Positions 7,994 through 61,199 of a DNA stretch of 64,000 nt are shown piece by piece. The position numbers were made by a program, and so were the translations under genes. Numbering within the stretch: the stretch's first letter is position 1; each line of letters begins with the position of its first letter. The stretch lies in the NCBI GenBank assembly GCA_013265495.1, contig MU057640.1, positions 629,303 through 693,302 of the forward strand. The letters run 5' to 3'. The stretch is from Vicugna vicugna (taxonomy: Eukaryota). Under the pieces are notes generated by a model. That model worked only from the letters and a program-made list of their open reading frames with translations. It was not told where the DNA came from and searched no databases.

Positions 7994-8075
7994 GACCAGC
8001 TCCTCTTCTGCGACGACTGTGACCGCGGCTATCACATGTACTGTTTAAATCCCCCAGTGGCTGAGCCCCCGGAAG
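7994..8075 (+). CDS. DPF3: DPF3 (BAF45C) penultimate coding exon, PHD finger 2: [27 protein letters not shown](G)
   Basis: 82-nt exon after a polypyrimidine tract and ccag acceptor (7990-7993), donor G|gtaatg at 8075/8076; translation is the D4-family PHD2 motif, and [11 protein letters not shown] matches DPF3 as recalled. Confidence 0.97.
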
Positions 8076-8621: not shown

Positions 8622-8692
8622 GGAGCTGGAGCTGCCACTTATGCTGGGAACTACTCAAAGAAAAAGCCTCAGCCTTCGGCTGCCAGGCCTAG
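8622..8692 (+). CDS. DPF3: DPF3 last coding exon (DPF3b C-terminus): (G)SWSCHLCWELLKEKASAFGCQA*
   Basis: Acceptor ctcctttctcgtag ends at 8621; phase 1 joins the previous exon in frame (G+GG); stop TAG 8690-8692; completes PHD2. Confidence 0.97.
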
Positions 8693-9939: not shown

Positions 9940-10400
9940 GAGCGAACCGGGCTGCCTTTGAATCACCGCAGCAGTGGCAACAGCAGCAGCACAAGAACGG
10001 ACACGTTTCTGGAAAAATCATTTGCCCAAAGGGCAGGTCTCGGTGAGCGGGACCCTCGCGCATGCTCGGCTTCCCTGAAATCAGCTCCTTCGCTGTGGTC
10101 CGCCGGCTTCCAACAAAGGCCCGGGTTATTTTTAGTCCTTCGGCTCCTGAAGAAGCCCCTGGAGGCGCAGAGGCTCGGGCCGGTGGGGCCGCTTCTGCCC
10201 GGCTGCTGCGTTCGGCCGCGACTTGGCAAGACCTTCCTTCCCGGCTAATTGCCCTCGGCCAGCGGACCCGGGGCAGCCTGGCGCGGAGCCGAGCCCTATC
10301 GGTCTCCCTCAGTCCTTTGCAGGGTGACCTGTGGCGGGAGATGGGGGCCACCCGCCCCCCTGCAGGGGCCTGTGGCCTCCGAGGGAGTTCCGAGCATGCA
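9940..10400. other. CpG-rich GC island-like segment
   Basis: Visibly dense CpGs (gcgggaccctcgcg, cggccgcg, ggcgcggagccg) against a CpG-poor background; obs/exp not computed. Confidence 0.55.
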
Positions 10401-11264
10401 TGATGATCTGTTTTAAAGGGCCCAGCCAGATGGGATTTTCATCTTCCTCATAAGCTATTTCCTTCCCCCTGCTGGTTGCTGAACTCTTTGGATTCTGGAG
10501 GCCCAGGGAGGGTTTGGGAAGTTGCCCTGTGGTCACGTCTTCCGTTTACTGGGGAGGGTCATGTTAGAGGGGCAGATTTCCTCTCCTGACTGCTCTGGCT
10601 CTCTGTCCTCCCACAGAGCCCAAAGTGGGCGTCCTCAAAGGCTGGTTATTGGTTTTGAAAAATCACTTTGATTTAATTTTAGGAAAAAAGTCATCAGAAT
10701 GTTCTCAAAAGCCACAAATGGCTTAAAAGTTTAAAAAAAAAAAAGTCAAATCTGAAACCAAAACGATAGCCCTACATGTGACAGACCCTCTTTGGAGTGT
10801 GTGCAGATCTGTTCTCCACCTCAAAGCAGATAATGGGGTGGCCCTCTCCTCTCTCCAGCCACACCTGCTGCCACAGAAGCCATGAGGGTGAGATTGGGTC
10901 TCTCAGACCTAGGAGGGAGATGTAACCTCCTGCAGGGGTGAGGGTGGCTGGTCTCTGGACTAGACATTGAGGAGGCCCAGAGTTCCCTTCCTAGTTTCAC
11001 TCCCTGCAGGATGGGCCCAACCCCTTCCTCTTTGGAGACCTCAGTTTCCCCATCTGGAAAGTGGGGACAGCAAAGCCAGCTTCTGGGATTGCAGTTGCAG
11101 GGTCCTGCAAGCAAACAAAAGTCAAAGTCACATTGTCACTTTCTGTATTGAAAAAAGAAAGGTGCTGGTCAACTTAAAATTGCTTTCTTTGAGCCCCAGA
11201 GAATGAGCCAGAATCACAGAGTGCACATGGATGGTCAGGGTTTTTGCCCCTGCCATTGAATTGA

Positions 11265-16605: not shown

Positions 16606-17271
16606 GCCCTGCTAGGCTCCTGTTTTTGTTTTTTTTTTTTTTTTCTGTACTGACAGTACCAGAATTTGGCCGTTTGTTCCAGCTCCCCTCTTTCTCTGCA
16701 CTTGTCACAGCCAGATTCCGGCTTCAAGCTATTCCCTGAAGAAGCCGCACTGAGCTCGCTTTCAGGCTGAGTGCCTGGGCTTGGGGGGAGGTACATGCCT
16801 GCCCCTGCTAGGTGTCAGCTCAGAGTTGGCCTAATGCTGCCGCCCTTGGCTTCTTTACGGGGGAGGCTCTGAGGAAGGCTNNNNNNNNNNNNNNNNNNNN
16901 NNNNNNNNNNNNNNNNNNNNNNNNNNNNNNNNNNNNNNNNNNNNNNNNNNNNNNNNNNNNNNNNNNNNNNNNNNNNNNNNNNNNNNNNNNNNNNNNNGCC
17001 CTGCTAGGCTCCTGTTTTTGTTTTTTTTTTTCTGTCTGTACTGACAGTACCAGAATTTGGCCGTTTGTTCCAGCTCCCCTCTTTCTCTGCACTTGTCACA
17101 GCCAGATTCCGGCTTCAAGCTATTCCCTGAAGAAGCCGCACTGAGCTCGCTTTCAGGCTGAGCGCCTGGGCTTGGGGGGAGGTACATGCCTGCCCCCGCT
17201 AGGTGTCAGCTCAGAGTTGGCCTAATGCTGCCGCCCTTGGCTTCTTTACGGGGGAGGCTCTGAGGAAGGCT
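16606..17271. other. Assembly gap (117 N, 16881-16997) with near-identical ~275-bp flanks
   Basis: 16606-16880 is repeated at 16998-17271 with two substitutions and a different T-tract. Confidence 0.95.
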
Positions 17272-32380: not shown

Positions 32381-34784
32381 AATGATACTGAGGGTCAAAG
32401 TCTATGGCTGTTTCCACTCCTAGCTGCCGTTCAGCTAAGACGCACAGGTCTGGCCATCTTGCGGATCAAAATAGGAAACGCTTCCAACTGGCTGACGGTG
32501 GCAATAAACCCCGCCCCACCCCTGCTGTGCCTAGTGTCCCAAGCCAGCCTCCTGACTCCTCTCCCAGGGCCCTCTCCCACCTCTGCACAACCCAGTCACG
32601 AAAGGGTGACCCCCGACCCACAGGGGTCTCCAGGACACTGTCTCACTGAGATGGCCGAGCATCTCTTCTGACTGATGGGTACCTGCACCACGAGTGCTGT
32701 AAAACACTTCAGTGTCACCCCTGCTCACCCTTCTTAAAGCGATAATCAAGTCCTAAACTGTTACACTTTGTGAGGGGACGCAGAAACCAAGAACAACTCA
32801 TGAGTTTCTGAACTTCTCCCTGCTTTGATCTGGTCTTAGTAGCTAGCCCTTTTCTTGGTGGTGGTGGGCAGGCAGCATCTCATACCTTCTCAGAAGGTCT
32901 GTATCAGACTCTGGACTGCAAGCAGCGGCCCCTTGGCTTTATCCACAAGTAGTAGATTGTTCAGGGGCAATGGTGTTCCACCGGGAATCACAGCCTCTGA
33001 GATGCCCCCGTGACTATCCAACACCCTCTGTACAGTTCTGCCCAGATCATGGGGACTGGAGTGTCAGCAAGTCACCTGCCACAGTCACAGCTGAACCTGG
33101 TGGAGCCCATACTTGACGCCACTGCAAGCAGTTCCTGGATGTAAGCCCCTTTCATTAGATTTGAGATGGGGGACAGGCACCTCTCATCCTCCCTTTTGGA
33201 AGAGGTGAGGCTCACAGCACATCAATAATTTTTTTTTCTAAATTAATCTTCTCTACAAACTCTATTCTTTAATTTCTAAAAGCCAGACCATTTTATACCC
33301 TCAGTGTGGGTGTAAGTGAGAAGTTGGAGTTCTGTAACAAGTTTTGGGGGTCTTATCTTAAAAAATGTGCATCTTCTTCTGATACCAAATCAGAACGTCA
33401 CACCTATTGTGTCATGGTGCCTCAGGCAAAACTTTCAGTTTAACATCCTTTTGTATTTACTTTGGACTTGATGCAATTGCAGGTGGAGACAGAGACAGCT
33501 GAGGAACTTCTGATGCTTGAAATACAAACCTGTGTGCACCCCTGTCCATGCCATACATTTCTTGTTGTTGACAGTCTCTCGGGAACCAGCCAATTTGGCT
33601 GAGATCATCAGAAAGTCTCGTGGATGCACTTGGCCAGAGGACACACTGGTAACCTCTTAGTTATCCCTTGGAGAGCATTTTCAGAGAGAGCTCTGGATAC
33701 ACTTTATTTTTCTTCTTGGCTTCTTCCCTTCTCCATGGGAAGACTTGAGTAAGCCTAGCTCTATTGGAGTCAAGTGCAGTTGGATGGGAAAGAATCCCAT
33801 GGCTTTGTTGCAATTCATCCTTATTTTGGATATTTGTATGACTCTCACCTCGTGGGGCTGGGGAGGAGGAGGGGAACTAGTTTCCCAGGGCCTCTGTTGG
33901 AGGAGGAGAGAGGAGAAGCTGCCATCCAGGATTGCACCAGGGATTCCAAGGTGGGGCCGGCCTAGACAGGACCCCCATCCCTCGGGCTGGGTGTATCCAT
34001 TTGTTGTAGCTCTGGGCACGTTTTCCACCTATGGGTGTTTATTCTCTTCTGCAAACTGGTCTGCCACACAACAAGATCAGTGTGAGCTGGCACCCTCTGC
34101 TTGCAACCTCCACGCAGGTCAAAGGACAGGTAGGCACTAGATGAATGCTGAGTGAGTGACTGAAGCCAATCGACTCAATTAGAAGCAGTCTCCAGAGAAC
34201 CTCATTTACATTTAGTTCTGTTAACGCCGCAAGCGTGAGGGCCTTCTAGGTGTCAGCACCACCCAGAGGCGTGACACAGTTATTCTGGCCTGAAGCCAGA
34301 GGAGAGATCAAACGTAGTTCTCCAGCCAAACCTGGTTTAATATACTTATTATGAAAAACGTATGTTGGGGAAAAAAGGAGAGATGAGATAGAAAAAATCA
34401 CCCATAATTCCACCATCAAGATAATGACTATTAATATTTTCTTAAATTGCTCAACTTTCATGCATATTGTTTTAAATTATCGAATTCATTTTCATATGCA
34501 ATTTTGGTTCCATCGCTTCATTTCTAACATCATTTAAAAGTCTCTAAACATCATTTTGATTCCTTATGTAACTTTCCTCCTATTTATAAAAATAGTGGAT
34601 GCTTATTACAGAAAATCTGGAAAAATGGAAAAGTTTTGAGAAGAGGCTAATAACATCATAAAACTTCCATCCAGGCATAGCTATTATATTTCCGTCAAGG
34701 CTTTTTTTTCCTACAAATTTATTTCTATATATTTTACAATATTGACAATTGCATACTGTGTACAGTTTATTTAAATTTTTTAAA

Positions 34785-34867
34785 TTCTTATTTTTTATTG
34801 AAATGTAGTCAATTTACAATATTTCAGGTGTACTGTAAAGTGATTCAATTATATGTAAAGATACATA
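34785..34867 (-). mobile_element. Short L1 3'-end insertion with TSD
   Basis: ttattgaaatgtagtcaatttacaat... between ttaaattttttaaa repeats (34771-34784, 34868-34881). Confidence 0.6.
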
Positions 34868-34945
34868 TTAAATTTTTTAAAATTTTAATGATGTAATATG
34901 TACACATAGTTAAATAAAAATGGCAAGTATAGAAGAGTTTAGGAT

Positions 34946-35093
34946 TAGGGGGAGGATATAGCTTAACTGGTAAATTGCATGCTTAGCATGCGTGAGGTCC
35001 TGGGTTCAACCCCCAGTACCATCATTAAAAAAATAAACCTAATTATCCCCCCCAAAAAATAAAAAATTAAATAAATAAAATTTTTTTTTAAAA
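34946..35093 (+). mobile_element. tRNA-derived SINE, camelid Vic-1-like, full length
   Basis: ggggaggatatagcttaactggt (A box)...gggttcaacccc (B box), A-rich tail with aataaacctaatta; perfect 15-bp TSD agaagagtttaggat (34931-34945, 35094-35108). Confidence 0.88.
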
Positions 35094-35889
35094 AGAAGAG
35101 TTTAGGATGAAAAGCAGTCCTGTTTTCTCCCTCCTTCCACCCCTAGCCCTGATCCTCAGAGGCAGCTGCTTTTAGCCCTTCTGGTATTTTCTTCTGGTGG
35201 TTATGTCAGCCTGTATTTCCAGTTGACATGAGTCCACTGCTACTTCCTGCTTATCAATGTTTGACGTTATCTGCTAGAGTTCCTGCTCTCGTGGTGTGGC
35301 TTCTGTGTCCCTGTCTCCTCCGTGGCAGGAATTCCTCTCTTGTTTACTTTTTACTGTAAGCATTAAACGTCGATCCTTTTAATTTTGCTCTATCAACTGT
35401 ATACAGTTATGTTGACCCTTCATTTTCTATAGGGACTTTATTAAGTCCCCTACCTCACCCCAAAACACACACACACATCTTTTTTCATCTCTCTTCACCA
35501 TATTCCATCCATCAACTTCTGTCTGCAGTACCTTGGCTTTTTCCATGTTAACATTTACATGATGGTCCTGAACAATTAAATTTTCCAGCCCTCCTATAAA
35601 TTCATCTGGAAAAGTAAGAATTAGTAAACAGTGTGCATATCACGGGGGCTACGTCTACGGTTCCCTGCAGAGCCAGGTGGTGCTCCGAGGATGCATTTGC
35701 TGCTAGAACAGCTCTGTGTTTTGCCTAGGCTTTTGTGGTCCTTTTTCTTTGTCTTTACCAAATTCTCTATTTCACTCCAGCTTTTCCATCCAGACAGGTA
35801 ATCCAGCAAGTTTGTTGTTTTGGAAGTTTGTTGTTTGCTGTTCTGGAGGCTCTCCTCCAGGGGACCTCTGTCCTGCTCCAGTTTTTGCC

Positions 35890-37240
35890 TGTCTGATGGT
35901 TTTGTATAAATGGAACATACAGTATATACACTTCTGTGCCTGACTTCTCATTCTCAGTGTAATGCTTGTGAGATTCTCCCGGGTTGTTGTATTCATCAAC
36001 AGTGTGTTCTTTTTATTGCTGAGTAATATTCCACTATATGTAAGGGCCACAATTTGTTCATCCATTCACCTATTGGTGACCATTTGGGTTGTTAGTTTTG
36101 ATGAAGTGATGATGAGTGTTCATATTCAAGTACTTTTATTTCTCTTGGTTAAATACCTAGGAGTGGGACGGCTAGGTTATGTAGTAAGAGTGTGTTTAAC
36201 TTTATGAGAATCTGCCCTCCAAAGTTGGACTGTTTGTAACTCTTACCAGCAAAAAATGAGATTTCTGGTTGCTCCACGTCTTTGCAGTATATTTAGTATT
36301 ATGCACCTTTTTAATGTTAGACTTTCTGTGGGTGTGTAGTGGCATTTCATTGGTTTAATTTGCACTTCTCTGATGATTACTAATGTTGAGCATCTTTTCA
36401 TGTGCTTAATGACTGTTTACATAACTTCCTTTGTGAAGTGACTTCAATTTTTTGCCCACTTTTTAATTGGATTATCATCTGATTTAGTTCTAAGATTTTT
36501 TTTTTTTAGTCAAGTCTTTTGTGAGATAGCCCCATGTGTTTTTGAACCCTGTGTTTTCCCAACTTAATATTGTATTGTAAGCAATTCTTCATGCATTTAT
36601 TTTGTTTGAAAACATATTTATTATTTGTTAATATTCTGCCATACAAATGTATCATTTTTTATTAAATAGTTCTCTTTCTATTGGGCATTTCTTTTTCAAC
36701 TTTCATTTTGTGGTTGCCCTAATAACAGTATAATGCATAGCCTTCTGCAGAAATCTGGTTTGCTCCTTAGGGTAGATTCCTAGAAGCAGAGCAACAGGGT
36801 CACAAGTTAGAGCATATTAAGGGTTTTTTGATATTTGGCGGTAGCCACACTGGTTCCCAAAAGTTTGCATCAATTTCAAGTGCCACCAATTGCAGGCGAA
36901 AACCACACTTTATATCACTATTGCCGGCTCTGGATATCCTTATTTACAAAAAAAAAAAAAGTTGTTAATTTAATGGGTGGTAATGGTAGCTGGTTTTAAG
37001 CTGTATTTCTTTTGGGGGGAGGGGGCGGTAATTAGGTTTATGTATTTATTTTAATGGAGGTACTGGAGATTGAACCCAGGACCTGTACATGCTAAGCACA
37101 CGCTCTACCACTGAGCTATATACCCTCTCCCCTTAAGCTGCATTTCTTAAACTATTAGCGTGGCTGGATATCTTTCCAAGTGTTTGATTGTCATTTATTT
37201 TTCCTCCTCTGTGAATTGTTCATTCATATCCTTTGTTCTC
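35890..37240 (-). mobile_element. Old L1 (L1ME-like) antisense fragments
   Basis: tttttattgctgagtaatattcca, tttgcacttctctgatgattactaatgttgagcatcttttcatgtgc and similar L1 text. Confidence 0.75.
37012..37132 (-). mobile_element. tRNA-derived SINE, Vic-1-like
   Basis: Reverse strand reads ggggagagggtatatagctcagtggtagagcgtgtgcttagcatgtacaggtcctgggttcaatctccagtacc; TSD ttaagctg(t/c)atttctt at 36996-37011 and 37133-37148. Confidence 0.88.
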
Positions 37241-37869
37241 AAATGGGTTTCCGAGTCACATTTCCCATCTTTGTAAAGAGATTGCAGCAGATGAAAGTGT
37301 CCAGCATTGGAGTCAGGGGAGCAGAGAAACATGCAGGTAGCTGACCAGAAAGCCGGGCGCTGGCTCTGGGGGACACCTGGGACCTCCAGGGACCCAGCAC
37401 ACTCCTTCTTTCACACCGGTCAGTTTGTGAAAGTTTGCATTTATTTCTGTAAATAGCAAGGGGGCAACTCTGTCCCCAGAAAGCAGGGACAAAAGCTTGC
37501 CTTCTGAGAGTTAAATTGTAACTTTTTGCCTAATGGAGCACAACAGTGATATGCAAGGTCACCAGACAGGGTCAAAATGGCTCCCAGGCCAGCAAGTTTT
37601 GACAGTAACCGCAACAAAAGAATTGCCAGATCTAAATAATAAGTTTGTCCCCCAGGACGGGGGAGGGGTGGCATTTTCAGTAATCAAAATGAATGTCAAA
37701 ATGCCCCCAGGCCTGTGGGTAAAAAGGTCACATGGATCATAATCCTTAAATTTCACTGGACCCTGCCTCAAACTGATCATGCAGAATGTCTAACCCCTGC
37801 AAAGGGACCCCTGAATGTTTTGAGCCCAGGAGTGCCTCACATATTCTCACAGCAGTTCTCCCACATAGA

Positions 37870-38230
37870 GGTGGGGGTCCCCAGGGATGTATCCCATGAG
37901 CTCACGAATGACAGGCCCCCCACCCAGGTCTTTCTGGGAATCCCTAGGGCCGGTCCCACGTGTGCTCCCAGACGAAACACCCCTTGACAACATTTATGAG
38001 AGTCCCTGGGGAATTCCATGCATCAGATCACAAACAAGTCTTCCCCAAGTAGGTCTGGGGACTCCCCGGGGACTCTCACAGGGTCTCATGGACAAGAGTG
38101 CCCCCAGCATCACAGGAGTCCCCAGGTAGTGTCTCACCTGCACCCCAGCAGCTTCCCCTGCACAAACATCCCTGGGAGTCCCCAGGGAGGGTTGCACCTG
38201 AGTCACAAACAAGGCCTCCCCTTGCCAGCA
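37870..38230 (+). repeat. Degenerate ~60-bp tandem array, 6 units, each with a TCCCNNGGGA-type core
   Basis: Cores start at 37878, 37941, 38003, 38063, 38119 and 38179; a secondary motif like tcacaaacaag recurs downstream of the cores. Confidence 0.75.
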
Positions 38231-38590
38231 CAGCCACTGCTCCAGCTCTAGGCTCTGAGAGTTCTAGAGCCTCCCGTGGACATCAGATGGGGCACTGCCA
38301 ACTCCTGGGGGGATGACACCCCCCTCTAATGGAAGCCTTTGGAACCTTTGGGATGCCAGAGCTGCAGAATAATTTGAAGCACAGTTGGGGTAGAAGCCAT
38401 CTTTCTCCTCAGTTGGAGGGGCGGGCTGTGCCTCAGTGGCTGACGTGGTGTTAGTTGACCGTTCTTTCTATTTTTACTGCCAGTTCTGTTCTTAATGGGA
38501 TTCAGCTAGGAGTCTCGGTGGGCTGGGCCAGAGACACATCCAAAGGACGGAATTATGCCGATGACAGAAGTTTTGTTGCCGGGCTAAGTT

Positions 38591-38927
38591 TTTTTTTTTT
38601 TCCACATTTTTTTCTCTGTGAGTTATCATAACATTTTGTGTATATTTCCCTGTGCTATACAGTGTAATCTTGTTTATCTATTCTACAATTTTGAAACCCC
38701 AGTCTATCCCTTCCCACCCTCTACCCCCCTGGTAACCACAAGTCTGTATTCTCTGTCCATGAGTCTATTTCTGTCCTGTATTTATGCTTTGTTTTTGTTT
38801 GTTTGTTTGTTTTTGTTTTTGTTTTTTAGATTCCACATACGAGCGATCTCATATGGTATTTTTCTTTCTCTTTCTGGCTTACTTCACTTAGAGTGACATT
38901 CTCCAGGAGCATCCATGTTGCTGCAAA
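38591..38927 (-). mobile_element. Young 5'-truncated L1 3' end (lineage-specific)
   Basis: Poly-T tail at 38589-38601; perfect 18-bp TSD ttgttgccgggctaagtt (38573-38590, 38928-38945); L1 3' text ttagattccacata...acttcacttag...catccatgttgctgcaaa. Confidence 0.92.
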
Positions 38928-39679
38928 TTGTTGCCGGGCTAAGTTGATCACACCGCTGCTTCTACCCTCGAAGGATGAACCCTTTTCCAAGGAGAATCCT
39001 CAGGCCTCCTTGTGAATGGGTTTATGGTTCAGTTGCCAGTTTAAGGATAAAGGGATTTATTACAAGGTATGGCATCAATTTTACCAAAGAGTCAGGAAAC
39101 CACCTAACGACGGTTGAAGCAGAAACCCACTGCTGGGCCCACCTGGGCCACCTCATTATCCCTGAGGCAGGGACCAGGCCATGGAACGTCCCCCACAGCT
39201 TTCCCCCTTAAGCCCAGCACCTCTGTCACCAGTGCGGACCTCCCAGCATGTGGCTGCCCCTCACATTACTCACTTCTATCCTCTGACTGTCTGCTGGGCA
39301 CGTCTGTTGGGTGGAAAGTTGGTCACGTGGGGTCTAGGAATGGGTGTGGCTTTCAGTTCTCAGTCCCCACAGTGCAGGAGGGCATGTGAAAAAGGGACTT
39401 GCCGGAGGGCTTGGTGAGCCACGGGGGGCTTCTCACGGACACGTCCCACCAGCTTACCAGAAACACAGACACCGTAGAGGCTCGATTTACATGAAAACCA
39501 TGCTCAGGGACTGTGGGCCATCACAGCTACACACAATCTTGGGGCTGTTGTCCTGGTGCGAGGATTCAATCCGTCCATTCCTTGTGGCTATTATGTCTCT
39601 ATTGGGTGGATTAACCTCTTTAAGTCCCTTATTTTGGTATTAAATAGATAACATTACTTATTCTCTTATTCTCATTGGT

Positions 39680-40460
39680 TGACCACTTGATTCATTCATC
39701 AGATGTTTACTGAGTGCCTACCATGTGCCATGTTCTGTGATAGTATTGGGGGATATTATAAAGAATCTGATACAGTCTTCATTCTTAAGGATCTCCATAT
39801 GTCACAGAGAAGTGGGGCAAGGCATCAGGTCATTATGGGAGAGCTGTGAATGCTAGGGTAGAGGGAAGACCAAGGTGACCTGGGGGCGGGAGGTGGGTAC
39901 TGTGGCTGGATCATGATGAGTATATTGTTTCAGGAGAGGGAGAGCCCTGCAATGAGTCCTAAAGGTCAGAGAGGTGGAGATTGGAGAGGCCCTCCTGACC
40001 AAAACGCCACATGTCCAGAGGAACACTTAGGGAACACGAAGTCACGAAGAAAGGCTGAACATAGCATTCTGGGGTCGGGGTAGGGAGAGAGGAGAATGGA
40101 GGCATCGACAGGGGCCAGATCAGGAGGGATCTGAAATTCTGTGATCTGAAATTTAGATTTCATCCTGCAGAGAACTCAGATTTTATTCTGAAGATAGCTA
40201 CTGAAGAGTTTTAAATGGTAGAGTAATGGGCTCAGATTTGTCTCAGAAACATCAGACGGTCTCATGGCAGCCCTGTGGAGTATAGACTGGAGAGAGCCAG
40301 GGAGGGCAGGTTGAATACCTAGTCCAGGTGAAGAATTAGAGACTGGAACTAGTGACAAGGTGGAAGGGGAGAAGAGGTTGGATGGGGGAGATGTATAGAA
40401 TGTACACCCCCCAAGACACATCTTATCTCTCATGGGATGTTGGGGATGAGGCAAAAGGGA
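39680..40460 (-). mobile_element. L2 3' portion
   Basis: ttcattcatcagatgtttactgagtgcctaccatgtgcca (L2 end) followed by antisense L2 body motifs. Confidence 0.7.
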
Positions 40461-40479
40461 GAAGAGGTAGATGCTTCGA

Positions 40480-40735
40480 TGTGATGCTTTGAAACCCTCA
40501 GGACTGAAGGACTTATTCTTCAGGCTGCTGGGAGAATTGCCCTAGGCTGAAGATAGCTACCTAGTCCAAGTTCACATTGCTTTCCTGGGTAGCCTGCGTG
40601 TAATGACTGGTCAAAATTAGGGTCTAGAATCTACATCTCAGATCCACCTTGAGACAACTCTGAGGACCTTCCCAGCTTCAGAGCCCCCTGAGGGGTTGGC
40701 TGAAACCTTGGCTGAGACTTCACTGCAGCTTATTG
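40480..40735 (+). mobile_element. ERVL LTR fragment (LTR16-like)
   Basis: gacaactctgagg...cccagcttcagagccccctgaggggttggctga...gagacttcactgcagc resembles LTR16 as recalled. Confidence 0.55.
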
Positions 40736-41849
40736 GATCCTGATTAGACTGAACTTAATAGACTGAATACTCCTAAAAATCGCATCAGTTGGAATTAACT
40801 CTGAAGTCCCCACACCTTCTGTCTCTAAGTTTCTGGCATGTTCTGAAGCAAAACCTGCCTGAAATATGTTCATTATGTTGTGGGAATCCAGACCCATCCC
40901 TTGCCTCTCTGGCCACCAGTTCATTTCACCTCTTGGATGATGATTCTGTCTCATTTTGTGTTCTCCTGAACCACTGGCTCGATTGGTGGTGATTAGCAGA
41001 GGGTGGTCCATTTATGTGAAACACCTGCTTTCCACCTGTGTCCCTGTGAGCAATCAGCTTTGGACCCTATGCAGGAAGATAGTGGGTGTCCTTCATAGCT
41101 GAATGGGCTTCCAGAATTTTCTCCAGGAGTCAGATCCAAACTGGCACCATATGGGTGACCATCTGGATGTCATTTTGCCAGCATTGCAATGAAAACATCT
41201 GCCAGCTTGTCAAAGAGACCTGGGGAGGCCTGGGAGCACCACAGAGGATTGACAGAAACACTGGCCCAAGAAGGCTGAGCCAGAGTAGTTTCCATTTTGT
41301 GAGTTGGGATGTAATTCAACTGGCCTCCCTTCCCTTGTTCCTGAAACCAGCATACACCAATTCAGAAGATTGTATTTTTGCATCACTTCCACCAACCTAC
41401 TCAGAATAGAGTGAACAACTGTGTCAAAGGTTATTTTACCCAACCCAGGGTTGAAAAGCACATCTGGGCACATCAAAGTTCCCATGGTAAGGGAACGATG
41501 TGGGGTGGAAGCTACGATTATGCTCCTAGTTTTGCATCATAACCAAGTCATTCATCCAACACTAGTCTGGCTACATGACACGCTCATTAACAAACCTCAT
41601 TCCTTGGTTGGTGATAAGACTCACAGAACCAAGACACAACACGTTTGACTGGTTGGGTCTAGGGGGACTGCACCAGTCAAAAGTGTAGGGGAAACTTTGA
41701 GCTGCAGCTCAAGGTACTTCATTTGAAAACAGTTCTTAGTTCTGCACGTGTGACTCGCACGTGTGGTTCTCCCATCTCAGTCCCCAACTGTGCTCACCCC
41801 AAGTTATTGGCCCTTTGAGCCACTGAATGATTTTCAACCTCCTCCAGTA

Positions 41850-42560
41850 TTTTATTTCGTGAATTCAACCAGCCCATGCTTCTGAAGTGCTTTTTAAGTG
41901 TTACGTGCCGTAGTAGGTTAAGGGATACGAAGTTGACCACAACAGCACCCTTACCCTAAAGGAGCCCATAGACCGGCACGGGAGAGAGACGGACATACAC
42001 ACTGCAGCAAGTCCGTAAGGAGGGCCGTTGCCCCAGACTTGGGGGAAAGAGGGGTCAGAGAAGGAGAAACCTGAGCCGAGCTCTGAAGAAAGAGCAGAAT
42101 TTAGTCGAGCAGGGAGGAGAAGGGAAAGCATTCCAGGCAGAGGCAGCAGCATGTGCAAAGGCTGCTAGTGACAGAAAGCAGACCTGCTGGGGCACCCTGA
42201 GCTCTTCCAATACGACCGCAGCAGGGGCTCGTGGAGGGGACAGGAGTCACATGTGGCATTTGGGCAGCATTCTAGGGATGAGCGCTATGGAAGATCGAGC
42301 AGAGGCATGGGAGAATCAGACCTGAAATTTCTAGGAGATGATCCTGGCTGCGGTATGGAGACTGAACGGCTCTTAGAGGGCCCGGCCGGGCTGCCGTGGT
42401 GGGAGCCAGAAACAACTGGAGTGGGGGGGGCAGGGAGGGGCTGAGCTGGAGAGACACAAGGATAGAGGCTGTAGTTGATTGGACGTGGAGGAGGAGGATG
42501 GAGAAAATGAGACAAACTTCGTCTGGGGAAGTGGGTGGCTGGGGAAGTCGTGAAGGAAGA
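41850..42560 (-). mobile_element. L2 fragment
   Basis: gcattccaggcagaggcagcagcatgtgcaaagg, a classic antisense L2 motif at ~42128-42160. Confidence 0.65.
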
Positions 42561-53215: not shown

Positions 53216-54119
53216 CTCTGGGCTAGTTGATTGTTAAAGGAATTTTCAATTCCTAGAGGCATGAGAGTCTAAGTTTCCAAAGGCAAAGTCAATCCTAGGA
53301 CCCCCCGATTTTATAGCTAAGCATTCATTAGACTTTCACTCACTTGGAACTTAGGTATGAGACAGAAAATGTAGATGATGACTCTGGATTATCTTGTCAT
53401 ATTTTGATAGCACACGTAGCTATCAATGAATCATTGACCATGGTGGTGTCTAAAGGACTCAGGACGCAACTGGAAGAGCTCTTACTTGGCCCCAAATGGG
53501 GCATTTTGGACATTAATAGGGAAAATAATGATGGATCAAAATACACTACGTAGAGTTAAATTCATGAGTCCATAATGATGCTGTAAAAACTCCAAGTATT
53601 TGGAACTTCTGGACCTTGAGATCTCTAACAGAGAAGCGCCAGGTCATCCCTTTACTCAGCCTGGGTTACATGGCCGCATCACCACCCCATAGATCCCTGT
53701 GTCCCTGGGGACTGTTCCAGCACTTCCCTTCCAGGTAGCTTTTATGATTTTGTTATTGTGTTAATCTATTTGGAGGAGGCATGGGTGCACTCCAGAGTTA
53801 CTGAGTTATTGGTAAGGGGTCTATAAAGCTCTACTTGCTAACTGCATAAATAATGCCTCACTTCGGTGTGTACAATTGCTTCCCTTTGTTTTCCAAGGAA
53901 GTTGCTTCTGTTAGATGAAGAATCATGCATCCTCTTCAGTGTGTGTGGGTTTTGTGATCATGTGCTTTCTCAAATGGGGCTCATGGACTTTGGAGGATTA
54001 AAAAGATAGCTTTTTACTGAAGAAGTTGTGGCCAATGGGCTGGAAGGGTGGATGGTAGCTCTGATCTTCCTCCTCGCCTCCCTGCTCTGGGCCTCAGTTT
54101 CTTTATGTATAGAAACAAA

Positions 54120-61148: not shown

Positions 61149-61199
61149 TCAGGAGGACTGCATCAGGCCGGTGAGGCGCTTGCCCGCCAGCGACTTTCC
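61149..61199 (-). CDS. RGS6: RGS6 terminal (alpha) coding exon: GKSLAGKRLTGLMQSS*
   Basis: Minus strand: UG/pyrimidine-rich tract ...gctgtctctgcag|GGA AAG TCG CTG GCG GGC AAG CGC CTC ACC GGC CTG ATG CAG TCC TCC TGA, the RGS6 alpha C-terminus as recalled; convergent DPF3-RGS6 arrangement matches known synteny. Confidence 0.95.
   Translation of the reverse strand, partial: GKSLAGKRLTGLMQSS

What the first reader, a model, noticed from the sequence alone, without database searches (positions are those of the whole stretch)
37870..38230. Decayed ~60-bp array that keeps an overlapping kappaB/EBF site in every unit: candidate homotypic enhancer
Seen: six cores at 37878 TCCCCAGGGA, 37941 TCCCTAGGGC, 38003 TCCCTGGGGA, 38063 TCCCCGGGGA, 38119 TCCCCAGGTA and 38179 TCCCCAGGGA, spaced 63/62/60/56/60 bp. 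Four are perfect TCCCNNGGGA, while the spacers have diverged strongly. The cores overlap kappaB-like words (GGGAATCCC 37936, GGGGAATTCC 38008, GGGGACTCCCC 38057, GGGAGTCCCC 38174). Spacers hold E-boxes (CACGTG 37957, CACCTG ~38135 and ~38195) and an AP-1 TGAGTCA (38199). Known: TCCCNNGGGA is the EBF/COE motif; EBF, E-proteins and NF-kB co-operate in B cells; DPF3 has been described as an EBF2-regulated BAF subunit in brown fat. Inference: an ancient minisatellite whose motif cores were retained, acting as an enhancer for DPF3 or RGS6. It sits near the middle of the intergenic gap.
Basis: partly seen in the sequence, partly recalled or inferred. Interest (0 to 1): 0.7.

Follow-up and report, generated by a model that had tools for sequence, protein, structure and literature searches.

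The report
Fossil minisatellite rich in EBF sites
Between the ends of the DPF3 and RGS6 genes of a camelid-like mammal lies a very old, worn row of about seven 60-base repeats in which a binding word for EBF transcription factors has survived better than the rest, a plausible but unproven gene switch.

Summary
The array is real: all quoted motifs lie at the stated places, and 4 of the window's 7 perfect TCCCNNGGGA words fall within 311 bp. It is larger and more repeat-like than described: spacers are homologous too, a seventh unit (37817-37871) and a partial eighth flank it, and both have lost the core. In the six inner units the 8 EBF-specified positions vary little (2 of 48 letters) while the two free positions vary (4 of 12). 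The core excess passes a max-window test (p about 0.004-0.006) but weakens when the edge units are included (p 0.02-0.11). Strict kappaB words occur in 4 of 6 units and overlap the EBF word, so co-binding is unlikely; E-boxes are at background rate. No second copy was found, but an old transposon origin could not be tested. Mouse brown-fat EBF2 binds Dpf3 intron 1, with no peak in the interval I recall as the Rgs6-Dpf3 gap. Best reading: a homotypic EBF-type site cluster made by ancient tandem duplication (0.4); close rival: inherited internal repeats of an old mobile element (0.33).

The parts
37817..38232 (.). Decayed tandem array of seven units of 55-63 bp (u0-u6)
   Evidence: the repeat finder family D1; unit and spacer homology against shuffles; profile of the units hits seven places here and nowhere else in the window below E 0.1 (the units match their own profile by construction)
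37817..37871 (+).
   Evidence: (tested as 37813-37872)
37878..37887 (.). Perfect EBF word, unit 1; strict kappaB-type word overlapping at 37873-37882
37941..37950 (.). EBF word with one mismatch, unit 2; no strict 10-bp kappaB word
38003..38012 (.). Perfect EBF word, unit 3; kappaB-type word on its right half at 38008-38017
38063..38072 (.). Perfect EBF word with central CpG, unit 4; kappaB-type words at 38057-38067
38119..38128 (.). EBF word with one mismatch, unit 5; no strict kappaB word
38179..38188 (.). Perfect EBF word, unit 6; kappaB-type word at 38174-38183; single AP-1 word at 38199-38205 in its spacer
38255..38290 (+). Partial eighth unit, offset by about 20 extra bases, core decayed (38261-38270); right end approximate
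7994..8074 (+). Context only: DPF3 PHD-finger exon; DPF3 stop near 8690
61149..61199 (-). Context only: last coding exon read as the RGS6 C-terminus (gene identity recalled, not tested with a tool)

Best explanation
A ~60-bp unit carrying one COE/EBF-type site was tandemly multiplied to at least seven copies very long ago, stopped being homogenised, and decayed. The inner copies kept the two CCC/GGG half-sites because the host gains from EBF-family dimers (EBF1-4) binding there. It most likely works like a homotypic site cluster: several EBF dimers, one per core, open the chromatin and act as a distal enhancer or landing pad in EBF-expressing cells (B cells, fat, neurons, sensory epithelia). 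The kappaB words are largely a by-product of shared GGGA/TCCC half-sites and could only compete with EBF on the same bases. Shown: the array, the motif content and a moderate excess of core conservation. Inferred: binding, selection by the host, enhancer activity. Not shown at all: the target gene.
For: Four perfect and two one-mismatch matches to the published EBF1 word TCCCNNGGGA (PMC4312928) within 311 bp, far beyond chance. In the six inner units, minority letters are 2 of 48 at the EBF-specified positions, 4 of 12 at the two free positions and 4 of 24 in the kappaB-only 5' part. Column identity is 0.75 in the 16-nt core block and 0.43 in spacers. Max-window permutation: 125 of 20000 (10 nt) and 72 of 20000 (16 nt). 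Uniform-decay simulations: 0 of 899 (star) and 1 of 1009 (trimer). Gamma-rate simulations (10-nt window): 5-26 of about 1620-1750. With MAFFT on data and null alike: 14, 6 and 4 of 295 for windows of 10, 12 and 16 nt. No second copy at 80% or more in the one genome run that laid. Context only: Dpf3 is a direct EBF2 target and its authors expect further unidentified EBF2 enhancers (PMC5411707); Dpf3 is listed as changed, higher in the knockout, in Ebf1-knockout cochlea (PMC12951292 supplement).
Against: Adding the edge units, which lost their cores, weakens the excess. Seven units: permutation 306 and 1061 of 10000; uniform simulations 3 and 15 of 467; gamma simulations 100 and 298 of 1424. Eight units: permutation 177 and 805 of 10000. 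The six-unit tests are biased because those units were picked by their cores. The variable centre is also what CpG decay would give (CA, TA, TG, CG, CA, CA), and the array is CpG-depleted (o/e 0.14). No EBF2 peak on mouse chr12 84.46-84.60 Mb among 28,172 table rows and no fat H3K27ac peak starting or ending in 84.50-84.56 Mb, while the known Dpf3 peaks near 84.81 and 84.83 Mb are found. That is one tissue and one species, the interval is recalled, and the mouse may lack the element. Spacing is neither unusually regular (P 0.07-0.75 under assumed indel rates) nor helically phased. No orthologue outside camelid-like runs could be examined.
Confidence: 0.4

Rival explanations
1. The array is the internal repeat region of an old mobile element, for example U3-type enhancer repeats of an ancient LTR. 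The core-versus-spacer pattern was set inside that element before insertion, and this copy has decayed neutrally since. EBF could still bind, without benefit to the host.
For: The units are more diverged from each other (column identity 0.52, about 0.35 changes per site per lineage in matched simulations) than old interspersed-repeat pairs in the same window (65-69% identity), yet the row is contiguous and its length spread fits a shorter neutral period equally well. The array is CpG-depleted. The neighbourhood holds many repeat-like pieces. LTRs with degenerate internal repeats are common (own knowledge), and EBF1 and NF-kB bind many activated LTRs in B-cell lines (PMC6280761 passages).
Against: No element ends found: TG...CA pairs with flanking duplications gave seven 4-bp, one 5-bp and no 6-bp candidates, which I judge chance-level. 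No second copy in the window, none at 80% or more in run X13 (blind to old families), and no true relative among 142 pattern-selected loci. My recalled lead LTR41/LTR41B is described as a CTCF/cohesin carrier, with no EBF mention in the passages seen.
Confidence: 0.33
2. A locally born, functionless minisatellite relic. The apparent core retention comes from picking the best-preserved word, uneven mutation rates, CpG decay at the centre and the self-complementary nature of the core.
For: With seven units and gamma-distributed rates the core excess is not significant (100 and 298 of 1424). Spacers also hold invariant columns. The edge units lost the core. E-boxes are at background. The cores are short palindromes, and units 3 and 4 form a 21-nt inverted pair. 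No mouse brown-fat peak.
Against: Under uniform decay the core excess stays unlikely even with seven or eight units (3 of 467; 4 of 681 for 10 nt). The conserved positions coincide with the published EBF word while its free positions vary. Folding is only weakly beyond shuffles (z -1.9), and most centres are non-palindromic, which argues against palindrome correction.
Confidence: 0.2
3. The retained word is read by another factor (NF-kB p50/p52 dimers, AP-2, or a zinc-finger protein), and the EBF match is incidental.
For: Strict kappaB words in 4 of 6 units against a window rate of 0.17 per kb. The EBF1 DNA-binding domain resembles the Rel-homology domain (PMC4312928 section 7).
Against: The EBF-specific right half (GGGA) is better kept than the kappaB-only 5' part (2 of 48 against 4 of 24 minority letters), and units 2 and 5 lack a strict kappaB word.
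Confidence: 0.07

Closest known systems
Tandem-repeat enhancer IFNB1-MRE in FOCAD (homotypic PU.1/SPI cluster; PMC13373173, passages read)
   Same: A tandem repeat whose units carry sites for one factor; across mammals the motif cluster is kept while unit size and consensus differ.
   Different: The MRE is a live VNTR (192-bp units, over 95% identical, 10-80 motifs, seen by Tandem Repeats Finder) with proven activity. This array has about 60-bp units at about 50% column identity, six cores, is invisible to Tandem Repeats Finder, and has no functional data.
Dpf3 +20-kb intronic EBF2 enhancer of mouse brown fat (PMC5411707, passages and peak tables)
   Same: EBF motifs at the DPF3 locus.
   Different: That enhancer is in intron 1 near the promoter, is bound, and was tested by CRISPR. 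This element is 29 kb past the DPF3 stop codon, and the matching mouse interval (recalled coordinates) has no EBF2 peak.
LTR-borne transcription-factor sites of ancient eutherian ERV/MaLR/Gypsy LTRs (e.g. LTR41/LTR41B with CTCF; PMC4248313, PMC6979391, PMC13175892 passages)
   Same: Old, CpG-depleted, motif-bearing sequence in a repeat-rich intergenic gap.
   Different: No LTR ends, target-site duplication or dispersed copies were shown here; LTR41 is reported with CTCF/cohesin/ZNF143, not EBF; no library comparison was possible.

Membership tests
Degenerate minisatellite (tandem array, unit 10-100 bp) | Head-to-tail units homologous over their whole length | tested here: met
   Units 40.2 against shuffles 16.1 +/- 1.4; spacers alone 22.2 against 12.5 +/- 1.2; 0 of 300 each
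Active VNTR | High unit identity and copy-number variation between individuals | tested here: not met
   Not found by Tandem Repeats Finder; 14 of 24 listed runs hold 95-100% of the sampled words; the one genome run that laid (X13; X10 gave no record) spans the array in one contig with no indel or joint
Homotypic EBF/COE site cluster | Several matches to TCCCNNGGGA within a few hundred bases, beyond chance | tested here: met
   4 perfect and 2 one-mismatch words in 311 bp; 0 of 5000 Markov copies with 3 or more perfect words
Homotypic EBF/COE site cluster | Sites better conserved than spacers | tested here: inconclusive
   Among paralogous units only: p 0.004-0.006 for six units, 0.02-0.11 for seven or eight units, not significant under strong rate variation; no orthologue alignment available
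EBF-dependent enhancer | EBF occupancy and active chromatin marks in a tissue | tested here: inconclusive
   No EBF2 or H3K27ac peak in the recalled mouse interval in fat; orthology of the element unverified; the B-cell and cochlea supplements searched were expression tables, not peak lists
EBF-dependent enhancer | Core-dependent activation of a reporter or target gene | not testable with these tools
   Needs bench work
Composite kappaB/EBF element | A strict kappaB word in each unit that can be occupied together with EBF | tested here: not met
   4 of 6 units, each overlapping the EBF word by 5-6 bp; steric exclusion is inference
LTR or other interspersed repeat | Match to a family consensus or profile | not testable with these tools
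   No Dfam/RepeatMasker library; no whole genome held
LTR or other interspersed repeat | Dispersed copies in the genome | tested here: inconclusive
   None at 80% or more in run X13, none in the window; both are blind to old families
LTR or other interspersed repeat | TG...CA ends with target-site duplication | tested here: inconclusive
   Seven 4-bp, one 5-bp, no 6-bp candidates; little power after long decay
Structured RNA or coding repeat | Rfam match, strong folding or an open frame across the units | tested here: not met
   Rfam over 34000-42000 gives only two tRNA-like heads outside the array; fold z -1.9; no frame spans the array, longest frame inside it 89 codons

The most novel reading that the evidence does not exclude
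A minisatellite frozen early in mammalian history that selection has whittled down to a row of EBF sites, each overlapped by a kappaB word so that EBF and NF-kB exclude each other. It would act as a switchable distal enhancer of DPF3, one of the missing EBF-regulated Dpf3 enhancers, and be an example of enhancers that began as tandem repeats but are now invisible to repeat finders.
Probability: 0.12. Interest if true: 0.65.

Novelty: new member of a known kind. Interest (0 to 1): 0.33.

Why it matters
Homotypic clusters built by tandem repeats are a known route to strong enhancers, but the proven case I read about is a young, high-identity VNTR. A cluster this decayed, with the sites outlasting the spacers, would show the late stage of that route and suggest a scan for fossil arrays that repeat finders miss. 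At this locus it would offer a candidate for the extra EBF-regulated DPF3 enhancers that the brown-fat study predicted. If it is an old LTR fragment instead, it is ordinary, though it would name a family that spreads EBF sites.

Tried and rejected
Whole-genome search: none held, so dispersed copies could not be counted. Across all 142, the best similarity was L039 (nhmmer E 0.008), which on reading is an unrelated low-complexity CCC/GGG repeat beside an ankyrin-like stretch. A tighter two-core pattern gave 0 viral loci. Sequencing runs: X10 laid nothing; X15 and X19 (RNA by guess, small shares) gave short pieces only, so no claim of transcription is made. X19's 203-bp piece has 0 changes in unit 6 and 4 in the next 144 bp, which is not significant (P 0.25). 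The LTR41/LTR41B-EBF1 lead from memory: 0 papers with both terms, CTCF in the passages seen, no core words in that paper's supplements. Further paper searches for a transposon with tandem EBF sites or for this intergenic element gave nothing relevant; most subscription papers are not searched. Coding repeat, structured RNA and helical phasing were rejected. A higher-order trimer structure is hinted by lags 176-178 but not clear in the pairwise scores. The bacterial promoter scan was uninformative. Earlier notes of this scan held nothing on this element. Not seen: the supplementary figure PDF of PMC5411707, which may show browser tracks around Dpf3.

Full report
Observation. Four of the seven perfect TCCCNNGGGA words in the 64-kb window lie between 37878 and 38188, with two one-mismatch words between them. 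In 5000 Markov copies of the 431-bp array none had three perfect words and none had six words within one mismatch. A 60-bp periodicity count ranks the array first of 1060 windows. Tandem Repeats Finder misses it even at score 30. The word is the published EBF1 site (PMC4312928, passages and section 7 read).

Anatomy. The feature is a true tandem array, not just spaced motifs. With the 16-nt core block removed, the spacers still align far better than shuffles (22.2 against 12.5 +/- 1.2, 0 of 300). A seventh unit lies to the left (35.2 against 22.1 +/- 1.6, 0 of 300) and a partial eighth to the right after about 20 extra bases (1 of 300); both have decayed cores. Stretches further out scored weakly (23, 9 and 85 of 300). 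So the site is kept in 6 of 7-8 units, not all. A strict kappaB word is present in units 1, 3, 4 and 6 only and overlaps the EBF word by 5-6 bp. Since an EBF dimer clamps the whole motif, the two could hardly be bound together (inference). The three E-boxes match the 2.7 expected from the window rate; the AP-1 word is single. The centre dinucleotides are CA, TA, TG, CG, CA and CA, all related by transitions and typical of CpG decay; the array is CpG-poor (o/e 0.14). No reading frame spans the array, Rfam finds nothing in it, and folding is only weakly beyond shuffles.

Context. The exon at 7994-8074 is DPF3, with its stop near 8690. A minus-strand last exon ending at 61149 reads as the RGS6 tail by recall. 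The array is 29.1 and 22.9 kb from these stops, so it is 3' of both genes and, by recalled gene sizes, hundreds of kb from either promoter. Earlier notes on this genome call it a South American camelid (not checked here). Fourteen of 24 listed runs hold 95-100% of the sampled words (three may be the window's source). Of four runs laid at 80% likeness, the one genome run that gave records spans the array in a single contig with no indel and no second locus; its differences are at 37807 and 38456, outside the units. The array therefore looks stable and has no young copies in that run; old copies would be missed.

Are the cores really retained? For the six inner units, column identity is 0.75 in the core block and 0.43 in spacers. 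Allowing for choice of the best window, permutation gives 125 of 20000 (10 nt) and 72 of 20000 (16 nt). Uniform-decay simulations reach the 10-nt value in 0 of 899 and 1 of 1009 cases, and gamma-rate simulations in 5-26 of about 1620-1750. With MAFFT applied to data and null alike, the counts are 14, 6 and 4 of 295. The 8 EBF-specified positions show 2 minority letters of 48, the 2 free positions 4 of 12, and the kappaB-only part 4 of 24. Against this, those six units were chosen by their cores. With the edge units added, permutation gives 306 and 1061 of 10000 (seven units) and 177 and 805 (eight). Uniform simulations then give 3 and 15 of 467, and gamma simulations 100 and 298 of 1424. The excess is real under uniform decay and only suggestive under uneven rates. 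Spacing is not unusually regular and not helically phased (indel rates assumed). This comparison is among paralogous units, so it cannot say whether selection acted in the host or in an earlier mobile element.

Origin. The units are more diverged than old repeat pairs in this window (65-69% identity), which fits either long host constraint on an ancient local array or divergence inside a mobile element before insertion. I found no element ends beyond what I judge chance, no second copy in the window, and no relative among 142 pattern-selected loci from viral and metagenome contigs. No repeat library and no whole genome were available, so this is open. A recalled link of LTR41B to EBF1 did not survive: no paper holds both terms, and the passages read tie LTR41/41B to CTCF and cohesin (PMC4248313, PMC6979391, PMC13175892). 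Passages of PMC3649963, PMC3431495 and PMC5753468 named no EBF-bearing family. PMC6280761 reports EBF1 and NF-kB on many diverse activated LTRs.

Function. Dpf3 is a direct EBF2 target in mouse brown fat through an intron-1 site at +20 kb, and the authors expect more EBF2 enhancers (PMC5411707 passages). In that paper's mm9 peak table the peaks at chr12:84,807,325, 84,808,048 and 84,827,151 are found, which fits my recalled Dpf3 position. No chr12 peak starts or ends in 84.46-84.60 Mb, the interval I recall as holding the Rgs6-Dpf3 gap, and no H3K27ac peak starts or ends in 84.50-84.56 Mb. This argues against the brown-fat version of the idea, but covers one tissue, and the mouse orthologue was not located. 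Supplements of two EBF1 papers were expression tables: Dpf3 is listed as higher in Ebf1-knockout cochlea (PMC12951292) and neither gene appears in the pro-B tables (PMC5830932).

Mechanism and rivals. Best (0.4): a homotypic EBF-type cluster made by ancient duplication and kept by host selection, working like a distal landing pad, target unknown. Close rival (0.33): inherited internal repeats of an old mobile element, neutral since insertion. Then a functionless local relic (0.2) and another reader such as NF-kB, AP-2 or a zinc-finger protein (0.07).

Comparison and novelty. It resembles the tandem-repeat enhancer of IFNB1 (PMC13373173, passages), but it is not an active VNTR and is not shown to be an enhancer. 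Ten paper searches found no description of this element or of a repeat family with tandem EBF sites; the library lacks most subscription papers. Verdict: a real, apparently undescribed new member of a known kind, with unproven function; interest 0.33.

Noticed in passing
window 16606-16880 and 16998-17271: A 275-bp direct pair at 98% identity, 392 bp apart: a very young local duplication or twin SINE insertion.
   Followed up: no
window 38573-38945: Insertion with an exact 18-bp target-site duplication and T-rich left end, 340 bp right of the array; looks like an L1 3' fragment (family recalled).
   Followed up: partly
window 37556-37730: Three nuclear-receptor-like half-sites (two AGGTCA, one GGGTCA) in 175 bp of unique-looking DNA just left of the array; a GC box at 38419 and a TGACG half-site at 38441 to its right. 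Could mark a larger regulatory region; not tested beyond window rates.
   Followed up: partly
window 34952-35024 (+) and 37055-37125 (-): Two tRNA-like heads (Rfam RF00005) followed by A-rich tails, most likely tRNA-derived SINEs rather than tRNA genes.
   Followed up: partly
window 53699-53714: A lone perfect EBF word with good flanks on both strands, about 7.4 kb from the RGS6-like stop.
   Followed up: no
window 39030-39350 and 40530-40760: Stretches that resemble old MaLR and ERVL LTRs (MLT1-like, LTR16-like) by recall only.
   Followed up: no
window 10001-10500: CpG-island-like patch (GC 0.62, o/e 0.67) about 1.3 kb past the DPF3 stop codon.
   Followed up: no
L030-L032, L064, L071, L078, L082-L085, L142: Several metagenome loci, many from contigs with neighbouring Ga03254xx names, carry long GC-rich arrays with 10-34 TCCCYRGGG-type words; they show no similarity to the window's array.
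   Followed up: no
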